Program-made: the position numbers and the translations under genes | The notes under the pieces: model-generated | Seen by the model: only the letters and a program-made list of their open reading frames with translations | Told to the model about the DNA's origin: nothing | The model's database searches: none | Part shown: piece by piece, positions 1 through 5,722 of the stretch | Layout of the letters: every line of letters begins with the position of its first letter | Numbering within the stretch: position 1 is the first letter of the stretch | Origin: a virus | Taxonomy: Duplodnaviria > Heunggongvirae > Uroviricota > Caudoviricetes | Strand: one strand, 5' to 3' | Virus record (IMG/VR): IMGVR_UViG_2695420503_000022 | DNA: 5,722 bases

Positions 1-66
1 GCAACCCTGACAAAAGTTGGGCGGGATATTCTTGCGAAATCGACCGTTGCCGCCGTTATCGAATAA
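1..66 (+). pseudogene. Orphan 3' end of a second side-tail-fibre constant-region copy, ending at TAA 64..66 (left boundary off-window)
   Basis: Frame 1 reads [21 protein letters not shown]. Nt 1..65 are the exact reverse complement of 3972..4036 inside the minus-strand stf gene (...[26 protein letters not shown]...). Where the active gene continues TAC CTC (Y L), this copy has TAA followed by an A-run. Confidence 0.6.
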
Positions 67-90
67 AAAAAAAAAACGGAAACGGTAAAC
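56..90. other. Degenerate crossover-site relic of recombinant (inverted-state) type: Sc-side half-site, A-tract in place of the core, then the Sv'-side flank
   Basis: 56..65 TTATCGAATA equals the Sc-proximal half of the 3956..3981 site (reverse complement). 78..90 GGAAACGGTAAAC is identical to 897..909 (end of the 875..900 site plus first Sv' codons). The two matches are colinear with no gap, but the 12 nt between them are A11C instead of CCTCGGTTTACA. Confidence 0.55.
65..76. repeat. A12 homopolymer tract
   Basis: Twelve consecutive A directly visible; it occupies the position of the crossover-site core in the relic. Confidence 0.9.
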
Positions 91-139
91 TTTTGAACCT
101 TATCCCGCGGCGTTACATGGTCAATTTGATTCCATTTCC

Positions 140-439
140 ATGTTTTACCTTCTTCACTGCCTGCCTGGAAATATATCTACAAAAAGCTGTGTAATACGCA
201 ATGCGGCGCAGGCCTTAACTGACGATGGAACTCTATACGGAGCCACAATTCTTGGCGATGGAGTTGTGCACAATAGCTTCGGTCAAAAACTGATGCGCAT
301 TTACAATCAGAAAGGCATCTTTTCAAACACAAAAGATTCCGAAGAAGGCTTAACACATATACTCTCAGAGCATTTCGAGAATGTTAAAACCAAGGTTCAA
401 GGTACTGTAGTAATGTTTTCCGCTTCAGGGAAAAAATAG
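140..439 (+). CDS. Hypothetical 99-aa protein, unassigned; possible cargo/moron gene
   Basis: Only sizeable ORF in the 67..493 gap; stop TAG 437..439. No purine-rich Shine-Dalgarno within 15 nt of the ATG (tttgattccatttccATG). No recognisable family from the translation. Composition looks AT-richer than the tail-fibre genes. Confidence 0.3.
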   Translation: MFYLLHCLPGNISTKSCVIRNAAQALTDDGTLYGATILGDGVVHNSFGQKLMRIYNQKGIFSNTKDSEEGLTHILSEHFENVKTKVQGTVVMFSASGKK

Positions 440-446
440 CATCCAA

Positions 447-479
447 CCGCAGCACGTTCTTGCTTAAGACGTGCTGCGG
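447..479. terminator. Strong stem-loop (11-bp perfect stem ccgcagcacgt / acgtgctgcgg); probable terminator of the ancestral stf-tfa operon (minus strand)
   Basis: Perfect 11-bp inverted repeat with 11-nt loop. It lies 15 nt 3' of the tfa-remnant stop (494..496, minus) and 8 nt 3' of the ORF99 stop (plus). On the minus strand a T6 run follows about 10 nt after the stem; no T-run on the plus strand, so not a canonical intrinsic terminator in either direction. Confidence 0.4.
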
Positions 480-493
480 CATAATCCCAATGA

Positions 494-586
494 TTACTCC
501 CTGACAGGGTTCGTAGGCCACTCAATATCAGGTGCAGTTGATGTATCAACACGGTTCAGCAACACCCGATACTTTTTCCAGGCTTC
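494..586 (-). pseudogene. tfa: C-terminal remnant (~30 codons) of a third tail-fibre assembly (Tfa) gene, fused in frame behind the invertase remnant
   Basis: Minus-strand translation in the pin frame reads [30 protein letters not shown] (stop 494..496). It shares the E-W-x-x-Y ... RVDT ... EWP pattern with the C-termini of both in-window tfa genes ([25 protein letters not shown]; [27 protein letters not shown]) and matches my recollection of the lambda Tfa C-terminus. Confidence 0.7.
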
Positions 587-820
587 CACCACCAGCACGA
601 CAAGATGCCGCATACAGTGAACCAGTCAGTCCAGTTTTCAGACAACCAGTGCGTCACCTTTTTGAAGGCGCTTTAAAGCACGTTTTAATCCAGGTCGGCC
701 TGTCCTTGTTCCGCTTAATTTATCTTCAAATATTTGTTCATATCCTGCACAAACAAGAGCGTTTCGTTGCAGATCTGTATTCTGGTCATTTGTTGATACC
801 CTTACATAGCCAATCAGCAC
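587..820 (-). pseudogene. pin: Serine DNA invertase (Pin/Gin/Hin/Cin family) remnant: N-terminal ~78 codons with two in-frame TGA stops, 3' part deleted
   Basis: Translation [76 protein letters not shown] matches the invertase N-terminus as I recall it (MLIGYVRVSTNDQ...DTLVVWKLDRLGRSMKHLISLVGE), with TGA at 638..640 where Trp is expected and TGA at 626..628 where Arg is expected. Likely start is GTG 818..820 preceded by GGAG (the ORF track extends to another GTG at 844). The catalytic Ser in YVRVSTNDQ is present, but the rest of the catalytic domain and the C-terminal DNA-binding domain are absent. Confidence 0.8.
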
Positions 821-874
821 GCTGAATCTCCCGTCCAAAAGCACAAATCATGCCATACAGGCCAGAAACCGCCA

Positions 875-900
875 TTATCTAAAACCTCGGTTTACAGGAA
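875..900. other. 26-bp invertase crossover site (gix/pix-like), invertase-proximal
   Basis: TTATCTAAAACC TC GGTTTACAGGAA: imperfect dyad around a 2-bp core. It matches the gix/hix-type site as I recall it and matches the reverse complement of 3956..3981 at 22 of 26 positions. It is read in frame into the Sv' cassette. Confidence 0.8.
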
Positions 901-1914
901 ACGGTAAACAAGGCTGGTAACGCCGTTCAGCGTTCCGGCGATAAAATGACCGGAGAACTGAAAATTGGCACGGTGAATGCGCTGCGAATTTTCAATGATG
1001 CCTTCGGTCTTATTTTCCGTCGTTCAGAAGATTTTCTTCATTTCATTCCGACGGCTGAAGGACAAGGCGAAAACGGTGATATAGGCCCATTAAGGCCATT
1101 CGCTATAAATCTGAGAACAGGTGCTATATCTGTCAGCCACGGGGCCAAAATTGATGGTGGGCTGGCGCTTGGTACAGATAACGCACTGGGCGGTAATTCC
1201 ATTACTCTCGGAGATAACGACACTGGTATTAAACAGGGCGGCGACGGTGTCCTTTTATTCTATTCAAATGGACAACTGGCATTTGGGCTTCAACCCGCAT
1301 CTGCTGATTTTTATAAGCGGGTTGCATATATTCATCAGGGAATAATTCCTGATGGAAGTGGCGCATTTGCAGACCAGTTGAATAATGCCACCGCGCCTTT
1401 TGTTCAGACGCAGTTTGCCTGGAATCCCACTCCTGGTGGTCATTACGTGCCGATAGTTAAGGGCTTGTCCATTCGCAATGGACAGGGCTATCCCGGCGCG
1501 GTCAGCTTTGGGTATTTACTGACAGAACAGTATGGATTTCCGGTTCCATGTATTCATATGCGTGGCGATGGCGGTAATGATGCTTTATGGCAGTTTAACC
1601 CGAACGATAAATCCTTTATTTCACCGGGTGCTCTTATTGCGGGTGGCGTCCGTTATAACACCGATGGAAATATATTTGGTGGGTGCTGGGGTTCAAACTT
1701 AAATGATTACCTGAATAGTTCTTTTATCAGAAATGTGCGTCTGGGAGGCAGACGTTCTGACACATTATATCGCGGAGGACTTTGCGAACCAGGTAATGGT
1801 CATGTGACAACAGGATTGCAAATTATTGGTGAGGTTGATGGAGATGACTGGATGGTGTCACGACCACTACAAAAATACATTTCTGGTAACTGGTATAACG
1901 TTGAACAGGCATAG
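889..1914 (+). CDS. Alternative tail-fibre C-terminal receptor-binding cassette (Sv'), promoterless and start-less in this orientation
   Basis: Open frame runs continuously from the crossover core (GGT TTA CAG GAA ACG ...) to TAG 1912..1914; the ATG at 946 is in this frame but probably incidental. Shares ALGGNSI[TV]LGDNDTG[IF]KQ[GN]GDG and a C-terminal QKYI[SN]G[NT]WYNV with the expressed cassette. Inversion would fuse it to the stf constant region. Confidence 0.8.
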   Translation, partial: GLQETVNKAGNAVQRSGDKMTGELKIGTVNALRIFNDAFGLIFRRSEDFLHFIPTAEGQGENGDIGPLRPFAINLRTGAISVSHGAKIDGGLALGTDNALGGNSITLGDNDTGIKQGGDGVLLFYSNGQLAFGLQPASADFYKRVAYIHQGIIPDGSGAFADQLNNATAPFVQTQFAWNPTPGGHYVPIVKGLSIRNGQGYPGAVSFGYLLTEQYGFPVPCIHMRGDGGNDALWQFNPNDKSFISPGALIAGGVRYNTDGNIFGGCWGSNLNDYLNSSFIRNVRLGGRRSDTLYRGGLCEPGNGHVTTGLQIIGEVDGDDWMVSRPLQKYISGNWYNVEQA

Positions 1915-1929
1915 CCATCAGGAGAATAT

Positions 1930-2457
1930 ATGCAACATCTGAAAAATATTACCGCCGGAAACCCCAAAACCATTGAGCAGTATCAGCTTACGAAAAAAGC
2001 TGGCGTTATCTGGCTATATACAGAAGACGGTAAAAACTGGTATGACGAATTAAAAAACTTTCAGGATGATACTTTAAAAATAGCTTATGACCAGAAGGGG
2101 ATTATTCGTTGTATTGAGAAAGACGTATCAACACTTAACCCTGACGGGTTAAGTGTTGTTGAGTTACCGAATATAACAGCCAACCGTCGCGCCGATATCT
2201 CGGGAAACTGGAAGTTTCTGGATGGTAAAGTAGTAAAGCGGGAATATACAAAACAGGAACTGCAACAGCAGGCAGAGTTACAAAAAGCCGCTTTGCTTTC
2301 CGAAGCGGAGTCTGTGATTCAACCGCTGGAACGTGCTGTCAGACTGAATATGGCAACTGATGAGGAACGCACACGACTGGAATCATGGGAACGCTACAGC
2401 GTTATGGTCAGCCGTGTGGATACTGCAAAGCCTGAATGGCCACAGAAACCAGAATAA
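1930..2457 (+). CDS. tfa: Tail-fibre assembly chaperone partnered with Sv' (Tfa/U' family)
   Basis: 175 aa; AGGAG at 1920..1924 five nt before the ATG. N-terminus [38 protein letters not shown] is a close paralogue of the minus-strand tfa and Mu U-like; typical Tfa C-terminal motif. Confidence 0.85.
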
Positions 2458-2466
2458 CAACAAATT

Positions 2467-2486
2467 AAGGCCCGTACGGGCCTTTT
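2467..2486. terminator. Bidirectional intrinsic terminator between the convergent tfa genes
   Basis: aaGGCCCgtacGGGCCtttt: GC stem with a 4-nt loop, T-run on the plus strand and a T-rich tail (aatttgttg) on the minus strand. It sits in the 30-bp gap between stop 2455..2457 and stop 2488..2490. Confidence 0.55.
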
Positions 2487-2487
2487 C

Positions 2488-3021
2488 TTATTCTGGTGGT
2501 TCCGGGAATGTTACAGGAAGAACCGAGGTATCAGTTGTCTCAACCTGTTGCACGTATCGCATCCAGTTCATCAGTTGCTGTCTGTCTGAATCAGTGATAA
2601 TCCCCAAAGTAAGCTGTGTTTGCCAGAACTGCGTTTTTTCTCTGGCCTGCTGTAATAATATTTTTTTCTGGTTTTCCGTCTGTAGGCGCAACTCTTCTTC
2701 GGTATATACACGTTTAATGACTGCGCCATCTTTAAACATCCATTTACCTGAGTCGTCAGCACGCCGGTTGGCGGTAATATCAGGAATCTCAACGACGCTA
2801 TAACCTTCAGGGTTAAGTGTGGAGGCATCTTTGGTTATGGCAACAATAATATTATTTTCATCGTAAACAATCTTTATGGTGTCTGGCTGAAAGTTTTTCA
2901 CTTCCTCATACCAGTTTTTTTCGTCCTCAGAGTAAAGCCAGATAACTCCGTGTTTCTTTGTTAACTCATACTGTTCCAGTGTTTTAGCATTACCCGCTTT
3001 TATGTTCTTTAAGTGCATCAT
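2488..3021 (-). CDS. tfa: Tail-fibre assembly chaperone for the currently expressed fibre (Tfa/U family)
   Basis: 177 aa; its ATG (3019..3021) lies one nt after the stf stop (3023..3025), indicating translational coupling. N-terminus [59 protein letters not shown] resembles Mu U / Tfa proteins as I recall them. Confidence 0.9.
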
Positions 3022-3022
3022 A

Positions 3023-5722
3023 TTAAACGCTCGCTACATTATACCAGGTGCCATTTATATACTTTTGAACGGGTCTGTAATAAACGCCCGCTATATTATC
3101 GGCAGAGTTAGACCCTGTATCCTGAACATTAATACCAGACAATACATGACCTGAAGGGCACCGGAAATACCATGTTTGCCAGTTGTTCACTCCATAATAT
3201 TGCTGTGAACCAAGTCGAACATCTTTCACATAACGGGAATCAAAGTTACCGTAATCCGAGGGGTTAACACGCCCTGTAATATTTATGGTTTTATTACTTT
3301 GAATGCTTCCGGAGACAAAGCGCATAACATGGACGTTATTAGCATAAACATCCAGATTACCATCGCCATTTTGTTTAAAGCCCGTGTCATTATCACCCAA
3401 TACAATCGAATTACCGCCAAGAGCACTGGATGTTCCGATACCCAGTGTACCATTCAGTTGACCACCAGATAACGGCAGTGCACCAACATCTCCTGCTGAA
3501 GGTTTTCTGGTGGTGGTGTAAAATTCGGACCAGTCGGCTTCAAAACCATAACCATCACGGGCTGAACGATAAAAAACACCGCCATTTTTATAATTAATCC
3601 GAAACTGAGCTGCAGGACAACTTCCTTCTCCCATATAAAAATGAATAATTAACGTTGATGCACCACTAATAGTTGCGTTATAGGCTCCGCTACTCCAGTT
3701 CCATCCAACTGCTTTATCATTCGCAACGGTGCTTCCTGTTTTCCCTAAGGCAAACGCACCAACATGACTTGCTTTTAATGTGATATCGGAGGAACCATCA
3801 AAAGCCACATTGCTTATTTTCCTGGCAGTTTTTAATTTTGCAGCTGTAGAAGCATTGCCGGATAGTTCACCAGAAAGGCCACCGCTGAATGTTTGTCGAT
3901 TAGTCCAGGTATTCGCTGTACTGAGTAACGGTATTTTCTCCCCGCTTGTGCCGAGTTCTCGTAAACCGAGGTATTCGATAACGGCGGCAACGGTCGATTT
4001 CGCAAGAATATCCCGCCCAACTTTTGTCAGGGTTGCCAGACTGGCAACATCATTCCCCGTAAAATACGGAAACCTGTCTGCCGCAGTAGCAAGCCCGGCC
4101 AGCGCCGTCAGGGTGGCATCTTTCGGTTGCTTACCCGCAAGCGCGTTAGTCATGGTGGTCGCAAAATTCGGGTCGTTGCCCAACGCCGCAGCCAGCTCGT
4201 TCAGCGTATTCAGTGCGTCAGGCGACGAGTCCACGAGGGCAGCGATCGCAGCCATAACATAAGCCGTGCTTGCGATTTGGGTATTATTCGTTCCCTGTCG
4301 CGCAGTTGGTGTTGTTGGCGTTCCGGTCAGTGCAGGACTATTTAAGGGCGCTTTCTTGTTCGTTTCACCCATTACCGCCTTAACCGCTTTTGGCGTTGCC
4401 GCCAGTGACTCGGAAGTGCTGTTGGTCGCACTGCTGAGCTGTACTATCCCCTTTTTCGTCGTGCTCGCATCCTCCAGCGCCACGGCGGATGCAATATCCT
4501 CTGCCCGTTTTGCTGCTGTCTCGGCGCGCGTTGCCGCGGATTCCGCCGTACTTTTGCTCTGAGCTGCCGCCGTCACACTACCAGCTGCCTCTGATGCTTT
4601 CATTGTTGCTGTCGTGGCACTACCTTTCGCTGCTGACGCTTGTCTGGTCGCCTCATCTTTTGAAGCAGACGCAGATGATGCCGATGACGCCGCTGAACTG
4701 GCTGACGATGCGGCTGCCGCCTTAGAGGAAGCAGCATTGTCTGCTGAAGTCTTTGCATTTGTTTCAGAGGTTTTTGCTGCAGAAGCAGACCTCGCTGCTG
4801 CAGTGGCTTGCTCAGTGGCTTTGCCAGCCTTCGTTGTGGCTGTTGAAGCGGATGATGCGGCGCTTTCTGCCGATTTTCCGGCGGCGGTGGCACTGGCTGA
4901 GGCCTGCCCGGCACTTGTTGACGCGGCACTGGCAGACGACGCAGCCGCTGTTTTTGAGCCTGCCGCAGCCGAGGCGCTCTGTCCCGCTGCCGTTTCAGAA
5001 GACCTGGCGTTTGTCTCAGACGTCTTTGCCGCCTTCGCGGAATTGCCTGCCGCCGTTGCCGAGGAAGCGGCACTACTGGCGCTTGATGATGCGTTCGTTT
5101 CTGATGATTTCGCTGCCTCTTTTGAGGCCGCCGCATCCCGGGCTGAGGTGGCTGCTTCTGACGCCTTCGTGGTCGCGGCGGATGCAGAAGTGGCTGCTGA
5201 TTGTTGTGACGCTGCCGCATTCGTTTCTGACGTTTTCGCCGCAGCGGCACTGGTAGCTGCCGCGCTTTTTGAGGACTCTGCAGCAGCAGCACTTTTCGAT
5301 GCTTCACTGGCCTTTGTTGATGCCGTTCCTGCGCTGGAAGACGCTGACTGAGCCGACGACGCGGCCTGTCCGGCTGACGTGCTGGCGGCACGTGCTGAGG
5401 CTGCAGCATCGGTTGCATGAGTTACCGCCTCGCTGGCTGATGCACTGGCATCGCTGGCTGATTTTTTCGCGGCTGCCGTATTCTGTGCAACCGCGGAGGC
5501 GTTACGTGACACTTCTTCCACCATCTGCTCAAAGCGGCGCAGTGCCTCCGGTCGGACATCATCCTCCGTCATGGCACCGAGAAAATCATTCAGCGTACCT
5601 GGTCTGGAACCTTCATAGACGGTAATGGTCCCGGCATGTGAAGGCGGAAAACCTTCAACCAGCAGGGTGACGCTGTACTGACCATGCTCAACATCCATGC
5701 TGTAACGTCCGGCTTCATCCGG
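3023..5722 (-). CDS. stf: Side tail fibre protein (lambda Stf-like), 5'-partial: constant region (3970..5722) fused through the crossover site to the Sv cassette (3023..3967)
   Basis: The open frame continues past the first in-window Met to the window edge (...[37 protein letters not shown]...). N-terminal domain and the KTSETNA-containing Ala/Ser-rich shaft resemble lambda Stf / E. coli StfR as I recall them. The C-terminal part carries the [13 protein letters not shown] motif and ends ...[14 protein letters not shown]. Confidence 0.9.
3956..3981. other. 26-bp invertase crossover site inside the stf coding sequence (codons I-E-Y-L-G-L-R-E)
   Basis: Plus strand TTCTCGTAAACC GA GGTATTCGATAA; its reverse complement TTATCGAATACC TC GGTTTACGAGAA matches the 875..900 site at 22/26 with an identical TC core and lies in inverted orientation to it. 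Confidence 0.8.
3972..4036. repeat. Right arm of a 65-bp perfect inverted repeat (left arm 1..65)
   Basis: Reverse complement of 3972..4036 is identical to 1..65; identity breaks at position 66 versus 3971. Confidence 0.85.
4530..5500 (-). repeat. Low-complexity Ala/Ser/Thr-rich periodic repeat region encoding the fibre shaft (approximate bounds)
   Basis: The protein shows reiterated A-A-K-T/S-S-E-T-N-A units and A/S/T runs. At DNA level, degenerate ~27-bp repeats of the type gcNgcaaaaacNtcNgaaacaaatgc (minus sense) recur at about 4747, 5030, 5095 and 5225. The GC-rich, stop-poor sequence generates long spurious ORFs in other frames. Confidence 0.7.

What the first reader, a model, noticed from the sequence alone, without database searches (positions are those of the whole stretch)
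1..90. Fossil inverted-state junction: orphan Sc end plus crossover-site relic with an A12 tract replacing the core
Nt 1..65 are 100% identical (inverted) to the stf constant-region end. The next 25 nt are colinear with a crossover site of recombinant type (Sc-side half TTATCGAATA ... Sv'-side flank GGAAACGGTAAAC), exactly what an Sc-Sv' junction would look like after inversion. The central 12 nt, including the 2-bp core and most of one half-site, are replaced by A11C, which creates TAA and destroys the site. Perfect identity in the coding part next to a wrecked site is not what neutral decay would give. It points to a recent duplication or gene conversion of the junction, followed or accompanied by a discrete event at the core, or to a second tail-fibre locus abutting this one. 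A 12-nt homopolymer is also a classic sequencing or assembly trouble spot.
Basis: seen in the sequence. Interest (0 to 1): 0.7.

Follow-up and report, generated by a model that had tools for sequence, protein, structure and literature searches.

The report
Chimeric junk at a contig end
The 90 bases are real in the record, but they are the last 90 bases of a short draft-assembly contig: a copy of the flipped-state junction of an ordinary invertible phage tail-fibre switch with 12 bases overwritten by A's, most likely an assembly artefact.

Summary
Nt 1-65 are an exact inverted copy of 3972-4036, and 78-90 are an exact copy of 897-909. The whole 1-90 equals the natural flipped-state Sc-cix-Sv' junction seen in relatives, except that 12 nt (cctcggtttaca) are replaced, in register, by aaaaaaaaaaac.

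1. The window is an entire 5,722-nt contig (GCA_001285105.1, CYAU01000092.1). Position 1 is a contig end, so no second stf gene can be read to its left.
2. At 90/91 the patch is fused without homology to the middle of a SAM-methyltransferase gene. That gene is intact in every relative, including one identical over all 5,632 remaining bases.
3. Neither junction was found in 5,426 complete E. coli genomes, the GTDB species representatives, IMG/VR or the JGI metagenomes.

The tail-fibre segment flips actively: 545 complete genomes carry the flipped junction and 329 the window state. A culture would therefore supply minority flipped-state reads.

Best reading (about 0.6): a contig-end chimera built from such reads, with a run of uncalled bases written as A. 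Rival (about 0.3): a real, private rearrangement scar, which would be non-functional. Only the reads can decide. The underlying Pin/cix switch is already known, so interest is low.

The parts
1..65 (+). Orphan copy of the 3' end of the constant part (Sc) of the side tail-fibre gene. It reads [21 protein letters not shown] and then TAA. It starts at the contig end.
   Evidence: 100% inverted repeat of 3972-4036. The same 65 nt occur in 997 E. coli records, and no match runs past nt 65. The contig end was shown.
66..77 (.). A11C block that replaces, in register, the 12 nt cctcggtttaca. These are the end of the left half-site, the 2-bp core and most of the right half-site of the crossover site.
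   Evidence: Alignment to the natural flipped junction of L007. The pattern is absent from all collections scanned.
78..90 (+). First 13 nt of the Sv' side of the crossover site (end of the right half-site plus the first Sv' codons).
   Evidence: Exact direct copy of 897-909 (D19), in register with L007.
91..439 (+). 3' 349 nt of a 669-nt class I SAM-dependent methyltransferase gene. The breakpoint at 90/91 has no homology.
   Evidence: All relatives align from nt 91 exactly. The gene is intact, at 222 aa, in L001 and L020 and matches Pfam methyltransferase domains.
494..598 (-). Remnant of a tail-fibre assembly gene.
   Evidence: RefSeq annotation of the matching stretch in WS3294A (the window coordinate is the L001 coordinate minus 7910).
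638..820 (-). Stump of a Pin-type serine invertase gene. It encodes the N-terminal 60 aa only, so there is no functional invertase in cis.
   Evidence: Pfam Resolvase N-terminal domain, E=4.6e-15, covering profile positions 2-69 of 145.
875..900 (.). Left crossover (cix-like) site, TTATCTAAAACC TC GGTTTACAGGAA.
   Evidence: Inverted repeat I3, 869-900 with 3956-3987. It is an inversion end-point in the comparison with L007.
901..1914 (+). Silent alternative tail-fibre C-terminus (Sv').
   Evidence: ORF 946-1914. It is fused to Sc in flipped relatives.
1930..2457 (+). Tail-fibre assembly gene that partners Sv'.
   Evidence: Pfam Caudo_TAP, E=9e-35.
2488..3021 (-). Tail-fibre assembly gene that partners the expressed Sv.
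   Evidence: Pfam Caudo_TAP, E=6e-32.
3023..5722 (-). Side tail-fibre gene (Sc plus the expressed Sv). It is cut at its 5' end by the other contig end.
   Evidence: Pfam phage_tail_N. The 941-aa gene is complete in L020. The exact 899-aa partial product identifies the contig.
3956..3981 (.). Right crossover site, inside stf at the Sc/Sv boundary.
   Evidence: Inverted repeat I3. The 869-3987 segment is inverted in L007 at 99.55% identity.

Best explanation
Nt 1-90 are not part of the isolate's chromosome as written. They are a contig-end chimera in a fragmented draft assembly.

Shown: the window is a whole 5,722-nt contig. Its body (91-5722) is a normal lambdoid-prophage tail-fibre inversion locus in one orientation. 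The same segment is found in both orientations among near-identical genomes.

Inferred: the sequenced culture held a minority of cells in the flipped state, so the library contained Sc-cix-Sv' junction reads that fit nowhere in the majority path. One or a few such reads, carrying about 12 uncalled or failed cycles, were attached to the open left end of the contig. That end lies in a methyltransferase gene, which is a frequent break point in draft assemblies of this region. Sequencing by synthesis stays in register when base calling fails, and some k-mer tools write N as A. That would explain a 12-for-12 overwrite by A's between perfect flanks.

The patch has no function. The stump encodes 21 codons and a stop, and the site lacks its core and one half-site.
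For: 1. The contig is CYAU01000092.1 of GCA_001285105.1, 5,722 nt long, and the partial product is seen on this one contig only.
2. L020 is identical to window 91-5722 with 0 mismatches and 0 gaps, and it has the intact methyltransferase upstream. WS3294A shows the same.
3. No record among 5,426 complete E. coli genomes extends a match past nt 65 or before nt 91. Junction patterns give 0 hits in genome contigs, viral contigs and metagenome contigs.
4. The replacement preserves length, and the 78 flanking nt carry no change.
5. Flipped-state molecules are common: 545 genomes are flipped and 329 are in the window state. Isolates of one series at the same chromosomal place differ in state: 4/1-1 and 4/4 are flipped, 2/0 and 4/0 are in the window state.
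6. Other draft contigs also break inside this methyltransferase gene (L007 and L009).
7. N-to-A conversion by a k-mer tool is documented for Diginorm (PMC5496428). That Velvet does the same is my recollection only.
8. Nt 1-76 are common to both natural states, and nt 77 is the first flipped-specific base. A graph assembler with k=77 would therefore start that branch exactly at nt 1 (inference; k is unknown).
Against: De Bruijn-graph assemblers do not invent k-mers, so reads or a gap-filling step must have supplied both the A-run and the 90/91 join. I cannot name one artefact that gives both. A simple failed-cycle read should continue into Sv' after nt 90, not jump to the methyltransferase gene. 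Low-coverage tips are usually clipped. The two joined pieces lie only 0.8-3.9 kb apart, which is closer than random ligation chimeras would be. The assembler, the read length and the coverage of this assembly are unknown to me.
Confidence: 0.6

Rival explanations
1. The patch is a real, private rearrangement scar, either fixed in the isolate or present in a sub-population. A flipped-state chromosome suffered a complex break or template-switch event. That event placed an inverted partial copy of stf (Sc end, crossover site, 13 nt of Sv') against the middle of the methyltransferase gene and filled the crossover core with an A-tract. The contig stops after 65 nt because Sc is then a two-copy inverted repeat in the assembly graph. 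The scar would be non-functional.
For: Graph assemblers normally report only k-mers that are present in reads. A contig that enters a repeat and stops after about k bases is normal behaviour, and 65 nt is a plausible k. The crossover site is a quasi-palindrome (I3), which is the kind of sequence at which inverted duplications start (general knowledge). The joined pieces are neighbours in the chromosome.
Against: The scar is unique among all collections searched. The predicted 625-aa truncated Stf is absent from about 15 billion proteins, although the left copy need not be complete. I know of no E. coli pathway that replaces 12 nt with exactly 12 nt of near-pure A. Serine invertases cut at the 2-bp core and neither of the two novel boundaries fits that chemistry. 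The contig runs on through Sc for 1.75 kb on the right side, which is unexpected if Sc were an equal-copy repeat.
Confidence: 0.3
2. A second complete tail-fibre locus or prophage abuts this one. The patch would be the end of its stf gene, inactivated at the crossover site.
For: Many E. coli genomes carry the same 65-nt Sc end at two or more places (up to 5 places per genome).
Against: No complete genome has an Sc end next to this methyltransferase gene in this orientation. The neighbour at nt 91 is the interior of a gene that is intact elsewhere, not a prophage boundary. The record ends at nt 1.
Confidence: 0.07
3. The patch is a deliberately or selectively locked switch. The A-tract would be a functional change that kills the crossover site to fix one tail-fibre form, or a slippage-prone phase-variation tract.
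For: The core and one half-site are precisely the parts removed.
Against: The two working sites, 875-900 and 3956-3981, are intact, so the segment is not locked. TAA at 64-66 lies upstream of the tract, so length changes cannot restore the frame. Only 13 nt of Sv' follow the tract.
Confidence: 0.03

Closest known systems
Gin/Cin/Pin/Hin-type serine-invertase tail-fibre switches (Mu G segment, P1 C segment, e14 P segment of E. coli K-12)
   Same: The body of the contig has the full anatomy. There is a constant stf part (Sc), and two 26-bp inverted crossover sites that match the TTATCNAAAACC-TC-GGTTTACAGGAA pattern. Between the sites lie two alternative C-termini, each with its own assembly gene. 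A resolvase-family gene sits next to one site. Both orientations occur in nature. Nt 1-90 copy the recombinant junction of this switch.
   Different: The cis invertase is a 60-aa stump, so flipping must be driven in trans. That is an inference. There is a precedent: PinQ of prophage Qin inverts the e14 segment (PMC12529663). The 1-90 patch is not itself a site: its core is AA instead of TC and only 5 of 12 right half-site positions are kept.
Contig-end chimeras and N-to-A artefacts of short-read assembly
   Same: The patch sits in the last 90 nt of a small draft contig. It is built from sequence of a minority structural state. It has a length-preserving homopolymer overwrite and a join without homology, and it is unique to one assembly.
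   Different: I could not identify the assembler or see the reads. A single known artefact that gives both anomalies was not found.
Tandem-inversion or fold-back duplications that start at quasi-palindromes (described in Salmonella; general knowledge)
   Same: An inverted copy of nearby sequence is joined at or near a dyad-symmetric site, with a second asymmetric junction.
   Different: Such junctions show short microhomologies and no homopolymer fill. Neither the copy number nor the second junction can be checked here.

Membership tests
Gin/Pin-type crossover (gix/cix) site, applied to nt 56-81 | Two 12-bp inverted half-sites close to TTATCCAAAACC | tested here: not met
   The left half TTATCGAATAAA keeps 10 of 12 positions of the local site. 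The right half AAAAAAACGGAA keeps 5 of 12.
Gin/Pin-type crossover (gix/cix) site, applied to nt 56-81 | A central 2-bp core identical to that of its partner sites (TC here) | tested here: not met
   The core reads AA, whereas both working sites have TC.
Gin/Pin-type crossover (gix/cix) site, applied to nt 56-81 | Seen as an inversion end-point in relatives | tested here: not met
   No relative carries this sequence at all.
Serine-invertase tail-fibre inversion switch, applied to the contig body 638-4036 | A pair of inverted 26-bp sites flanking alternative tail-fibre C-termini and assembly genes | tested here: met
   Sites at 875-900 and 3956-3981 (I3). Sv'/tfa' and tfa/Sv lie between them.
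Serine-invertase tail-fibre inversion switch, applied to the contig body 638-4036 | Both orientations occur | tested here: met
   L007 has 869-3987 inverted at 99.55% identity. 545 complete genomes are flipped and 329 are in the window state.
Serine-invertase tail-fibre inversion switch, applied to the contig body 638-4036 | A functional invertase gene adjacent to the segment | tested here: not met
   Only residues covering positions 2-69 of the 145-position resolvase domain remain, and there is no DNA-binding domain. Supply in trans is inferred (PMC12529663).
Serine-invertase tail-fibre inversion switch, applied to the contig body 638-4036 | A Fis-dependent recombinational enhancer | not tested
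   In Gin and Hin the enhancer lies in the 5' part of the invertase gene (general knowledge). That part is retained here, but I did not examine it.
Assembly artefact | Not supported by independent, good-quality reads | not testable with these tools
   Reads of GCA_001285105.1 are not available here.
Assembly artefact | Located at a contig end and absent from closely related genomes | tested here: met

The most novel reading that the evidence does not exclude
The junction is real DNA: a scar of an aberrant event at a serine-invertase crossover site. The cleaved core was resected and filled with an untemplated A-tract, and the end was joined in inverted orientation 3.9 kb away. That would point to an unknown break-repair or fill-in route in E. 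coli acting on failed invertase reactions.
Probability: 0.05. Interest if true: 0.6.

Novelty: not a real feature. Interest (0 to 1): 0.1.

Why it matters
As a biological finding it matters little. The switch it derives from is a textbook system, and the patch is inert under any reading.

It has some practical value as a warning. Actively flipping segments leave minority-state reads that can be stitched onto contig ends in draft assemblies. Scans for relic recombination sites or for duplicated tail-fibre genes should therefore discount features within about one read length of a contig end.

A modest real point concerns the switch itself. This very common E. coli prophage switch keeps flipping, with both states frequent and differing between isolates of one series, although its own invertase gene is a 60-aa stump. 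This fits recent evidence that Pin-type invertases act across prophages.

Tried and rejected
1. I looked for the junction elsewhere. I ran megablast and blastn of 1-900, 1-220, 1-90 and the whole window against 5,426 complete E. coli genomes and against phage records. I also ran six exact-pattern scans of GTDB representatives, IMG/VR and JGI metagenomes. Nothing was found.

2. I looked for a second stf copy ending in AAVIE*. The exact look-up of the predicted 625-aa protein found nothing. This is a weak test, because it assumes an identical full-length copy.

3. I looked for an independent sample with the same contig. The tool reports '2 samples', but the partial protein is on one contig only, under a RefSeq accession. 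The two are therefore probably the GenBank and RefSeq copies of one assembly.

4. I considered Pin-mediated recombination with a pseudo-site in the methyltransferase gene. A TTATCC motif lies 9 nt to the right of the join, but the rest does not resemble a site and the join is not at a core. Rejected.

5. I considered a phase-variable homopolymer. The stop codon precedes the tract, so this is rejected.

6. I considered neutral decay of an old site. It is excluded by 78 of 78 identical flanking bases.

7. I considered a polyadenylated-RNA or retro-element origin. It is rejected because the sequence resumes in register after the tract.

8. Literature searches for the accession prefix and for Velvet's handling of N gave nothing usable. 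The exception is the Diginorm statement.

Full report
WHAT IS THERE

The window carries a lambdoid-prophage side-tail-fibre inversion locus of E. coli. On the minus strand lie stf (3023 to beyond 5722; Pfam phage_tail_N) and its assembly gene (2488-3021). On the plus strand lie a silent alternative C-terminus Sv' (about 901-1914) and its assembly gene (1930-2457).

Two inverted 26-bp crossover sites bracket the segment, at 875-900 and 3956-3981 (I3). They read TTATCTAAAACC-TC-GGTTTACAGGAA and, in reverse complement, TTATCGAATACC-TC-GGTTTACGAGAA. To the left of the segment are a 60-aa stump of a resolvase-family invertase (638-820, minus strand), a tail-fibre assembly remnant, and the 3' part of a class I SAM methyltransferase gene (91-439).

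CHECK OF THE OBSERVATION

- Nt 1-65 are a perfect inverted copy of 3972-4036 (I1).
- Nt 78-90 are a perfect direct copy of 897-909 (D19).
- A relative that carries the segment in the other orientation (L007) shows the natural Sc-cix-Sv' junction.
- The window's 1-90 is identical to that junction and in register with it, except for 66-77. There cctcggtttaca is replaced by aaaaaaaaaaac.
- This creates TAA at 64-66 and a 12-nt A run at 65-76.
- That run is the only homopolymer of 9 nt or more in 263 kb of related loci.

First, every relative aligns from nt 91 exactly.
- L020 (GCA_052765905.1) is identical over 91-5722 with no mismatch or gap. WS3294A is nearly identical.
- In both, nt 91 lies 320 nt inside an intact 669-nt methyltransferase gene.
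- The patch is therefore fused to the middle of a gene, and there is no homology at the join.

Second, the exact look-up of the partial Stf product shows that the window is a complete contig.
- It is CYAU01000092.1 of GCA_001285105.1, 5,722 nt long.
- The product is known from this one contig only.
- Nt 1 is therefore a contig end, and the patch is the terminal 90 nt of a small contig in a fragmented draft assembly.

Third, the patch is unique.
- No complete E. coli genome out of 5,426 extends a match beyond nt 65 or before nt 91.
- No phage record does so either.
- Six exact-pattern scans of GTDB representatives, IMG/VR and JGI metagenomes found nothing.

THE SWITCH IS LIVE

The flipped Sc-cix-Sv' junction is present in 545 complete genomes, and the window-state junction in 329. 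Isolates of one series at the same chromosomal place differ in state: 4/1-1 and 4/4 are flipped, while 2/0 and 4/0 are in the window state.

L007 has 869-3987 inverted at 99.55% identity. Because the cis invertase is a stump, inversion must be catalysed in trans. This is an inference. A precedent is PinQ of prophage Qin, which inverts the e14 segment (PMC12529663). Cultures of such strains are therefore expected to contain both junction types.

EXPLANATION

A length-preserving overwrite of 12 nt by a near-pure homopolymer, between 78 flanking bases without a single change, is not neutral decay. It also matches no recombination or repair chemistry I know. Serine invertases cut at the 2-bp core, and neither of the two novel boundaries fits that.

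Register-preserving corruption is what failed base calls give, because sequencing by synthesis advances one base per cycle regardless. At least one k-mer tool writes N as A (Diginorm, PMC5496428). That Velvet does the same is only my recollection.

Four facts bear on the artefact reading:
- The patch sits at a contig end.
- It is unique to one assembly.
- The join at 90/91 has no homology.
- Minority flipped-state reads would be available in the culture.

On that basis I judge a contig-end chimera to be the most likely reading (0.6).

One further hint is inference only. Nt 1-76 are common to both natural states, and nt 77 is the first flipped-specific base. A graph branch for the flipped state would therefore start exactly at nt 1 if k=77.

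WEAKNESSES AND RIVALS

Graph assemblers do not invent k-mers, and I cannot name a single artefact that yields both the A-run and the jump at 90/91.

A real private rearrangement remains possible (0.3). It would be an inverted partial copy of stf joined to mid-methyltransferase, fixed or sub-clonal, with the contig stopping about k bases into the repeated Sc.

A full second stf locus has no support (0.07). The predicted 625-aa truncated Stf is not among about 15 billion proteins, and no genome shows such an arrangement.

A functional 'locked switch' or a phase-variable tract is contradicted by the sequence. Both working sites are intact, and the stop codon precedes the tract.

COMPARISON AND VERDICT

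The contig body is an ordinary member of the Gin/Cin/Pin/Hin-type tail-fibre switches, with a decayed cis invertase. Nt 56-81 fail the tests for a crossover site: the core is AA rather than TC, the right half-site keeps 5 of 12 positions, and no relative uses it.

The patch is inert under every reading. Only the reads of this assembly, or a long-read assembly of the isolate, can settle whether it is an artefact or a scar. Interest is low.

Noticed in passing
window 638-820 (minus strand), with 875-900 and 3956-3981: The invertase gene next to the invertible tail-fibre segment is only a 60-aa stump. Even so, the segment is found in both orientations in hundreds of complete E. coli genomes (545 flipped, 329 in the window state), and the orientation differs between isolates of one series. 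Flipping must be driven in trans by an invertase encoded elsewhere.
   Followed up: partly
window 91-598; L001 7300-7531 and 8350-8508: In relatives the methyltransferase gene is flanked on both sides by similar remnants of tail-fibre assembly gene 3' ends. This suggests an older insertion or duplication that brought the methyltransferase gene into the tail-fibre region. The same methyltransferase plus tfa module (window 91-591) occurs in several free lambdoid phages, such as 2G7b, ev243 and the PhiR series.
   Followed up: no
window 946-1914 and 1930-2457; L001 8796-10365: RefSeq marks the silent Sv' gene and its assembly gene as frameshifted in WS3294A. That record differs from the window by two gaps, whereas the window and L020 have open frames. 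These are probably homopolymer errors in that complete genome rather than biology.
   Followed up: partly
window 4600-5420 (minus strand, stf): The N-terminal half of Stf is a long Ala/Ser/Thr-rich repeat region, with DNA repeat families spaced by multiples of 21-42 nt. It also carries long spurious ORFs on the opposite strand and in other frames (245 aa, 272 aa).
   Followed up: no
L002 (AP022360.1, a complete genome), whole locus: This record has the same locus in the flipped state. Nearly every gene, including the trp operon, is broken into fragments, which looks like an unpolished long-read assembly full of indels.
   Followed up: no
L012 9972-12849 and L018 8955-12969: In some relatives stf is truncated, and terminase, HNH or lysis genes follow directly. 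The tail-fibre end of this prophage is therefore a hotspot for deletions and rearrangements between prophages.
   Followed up: no
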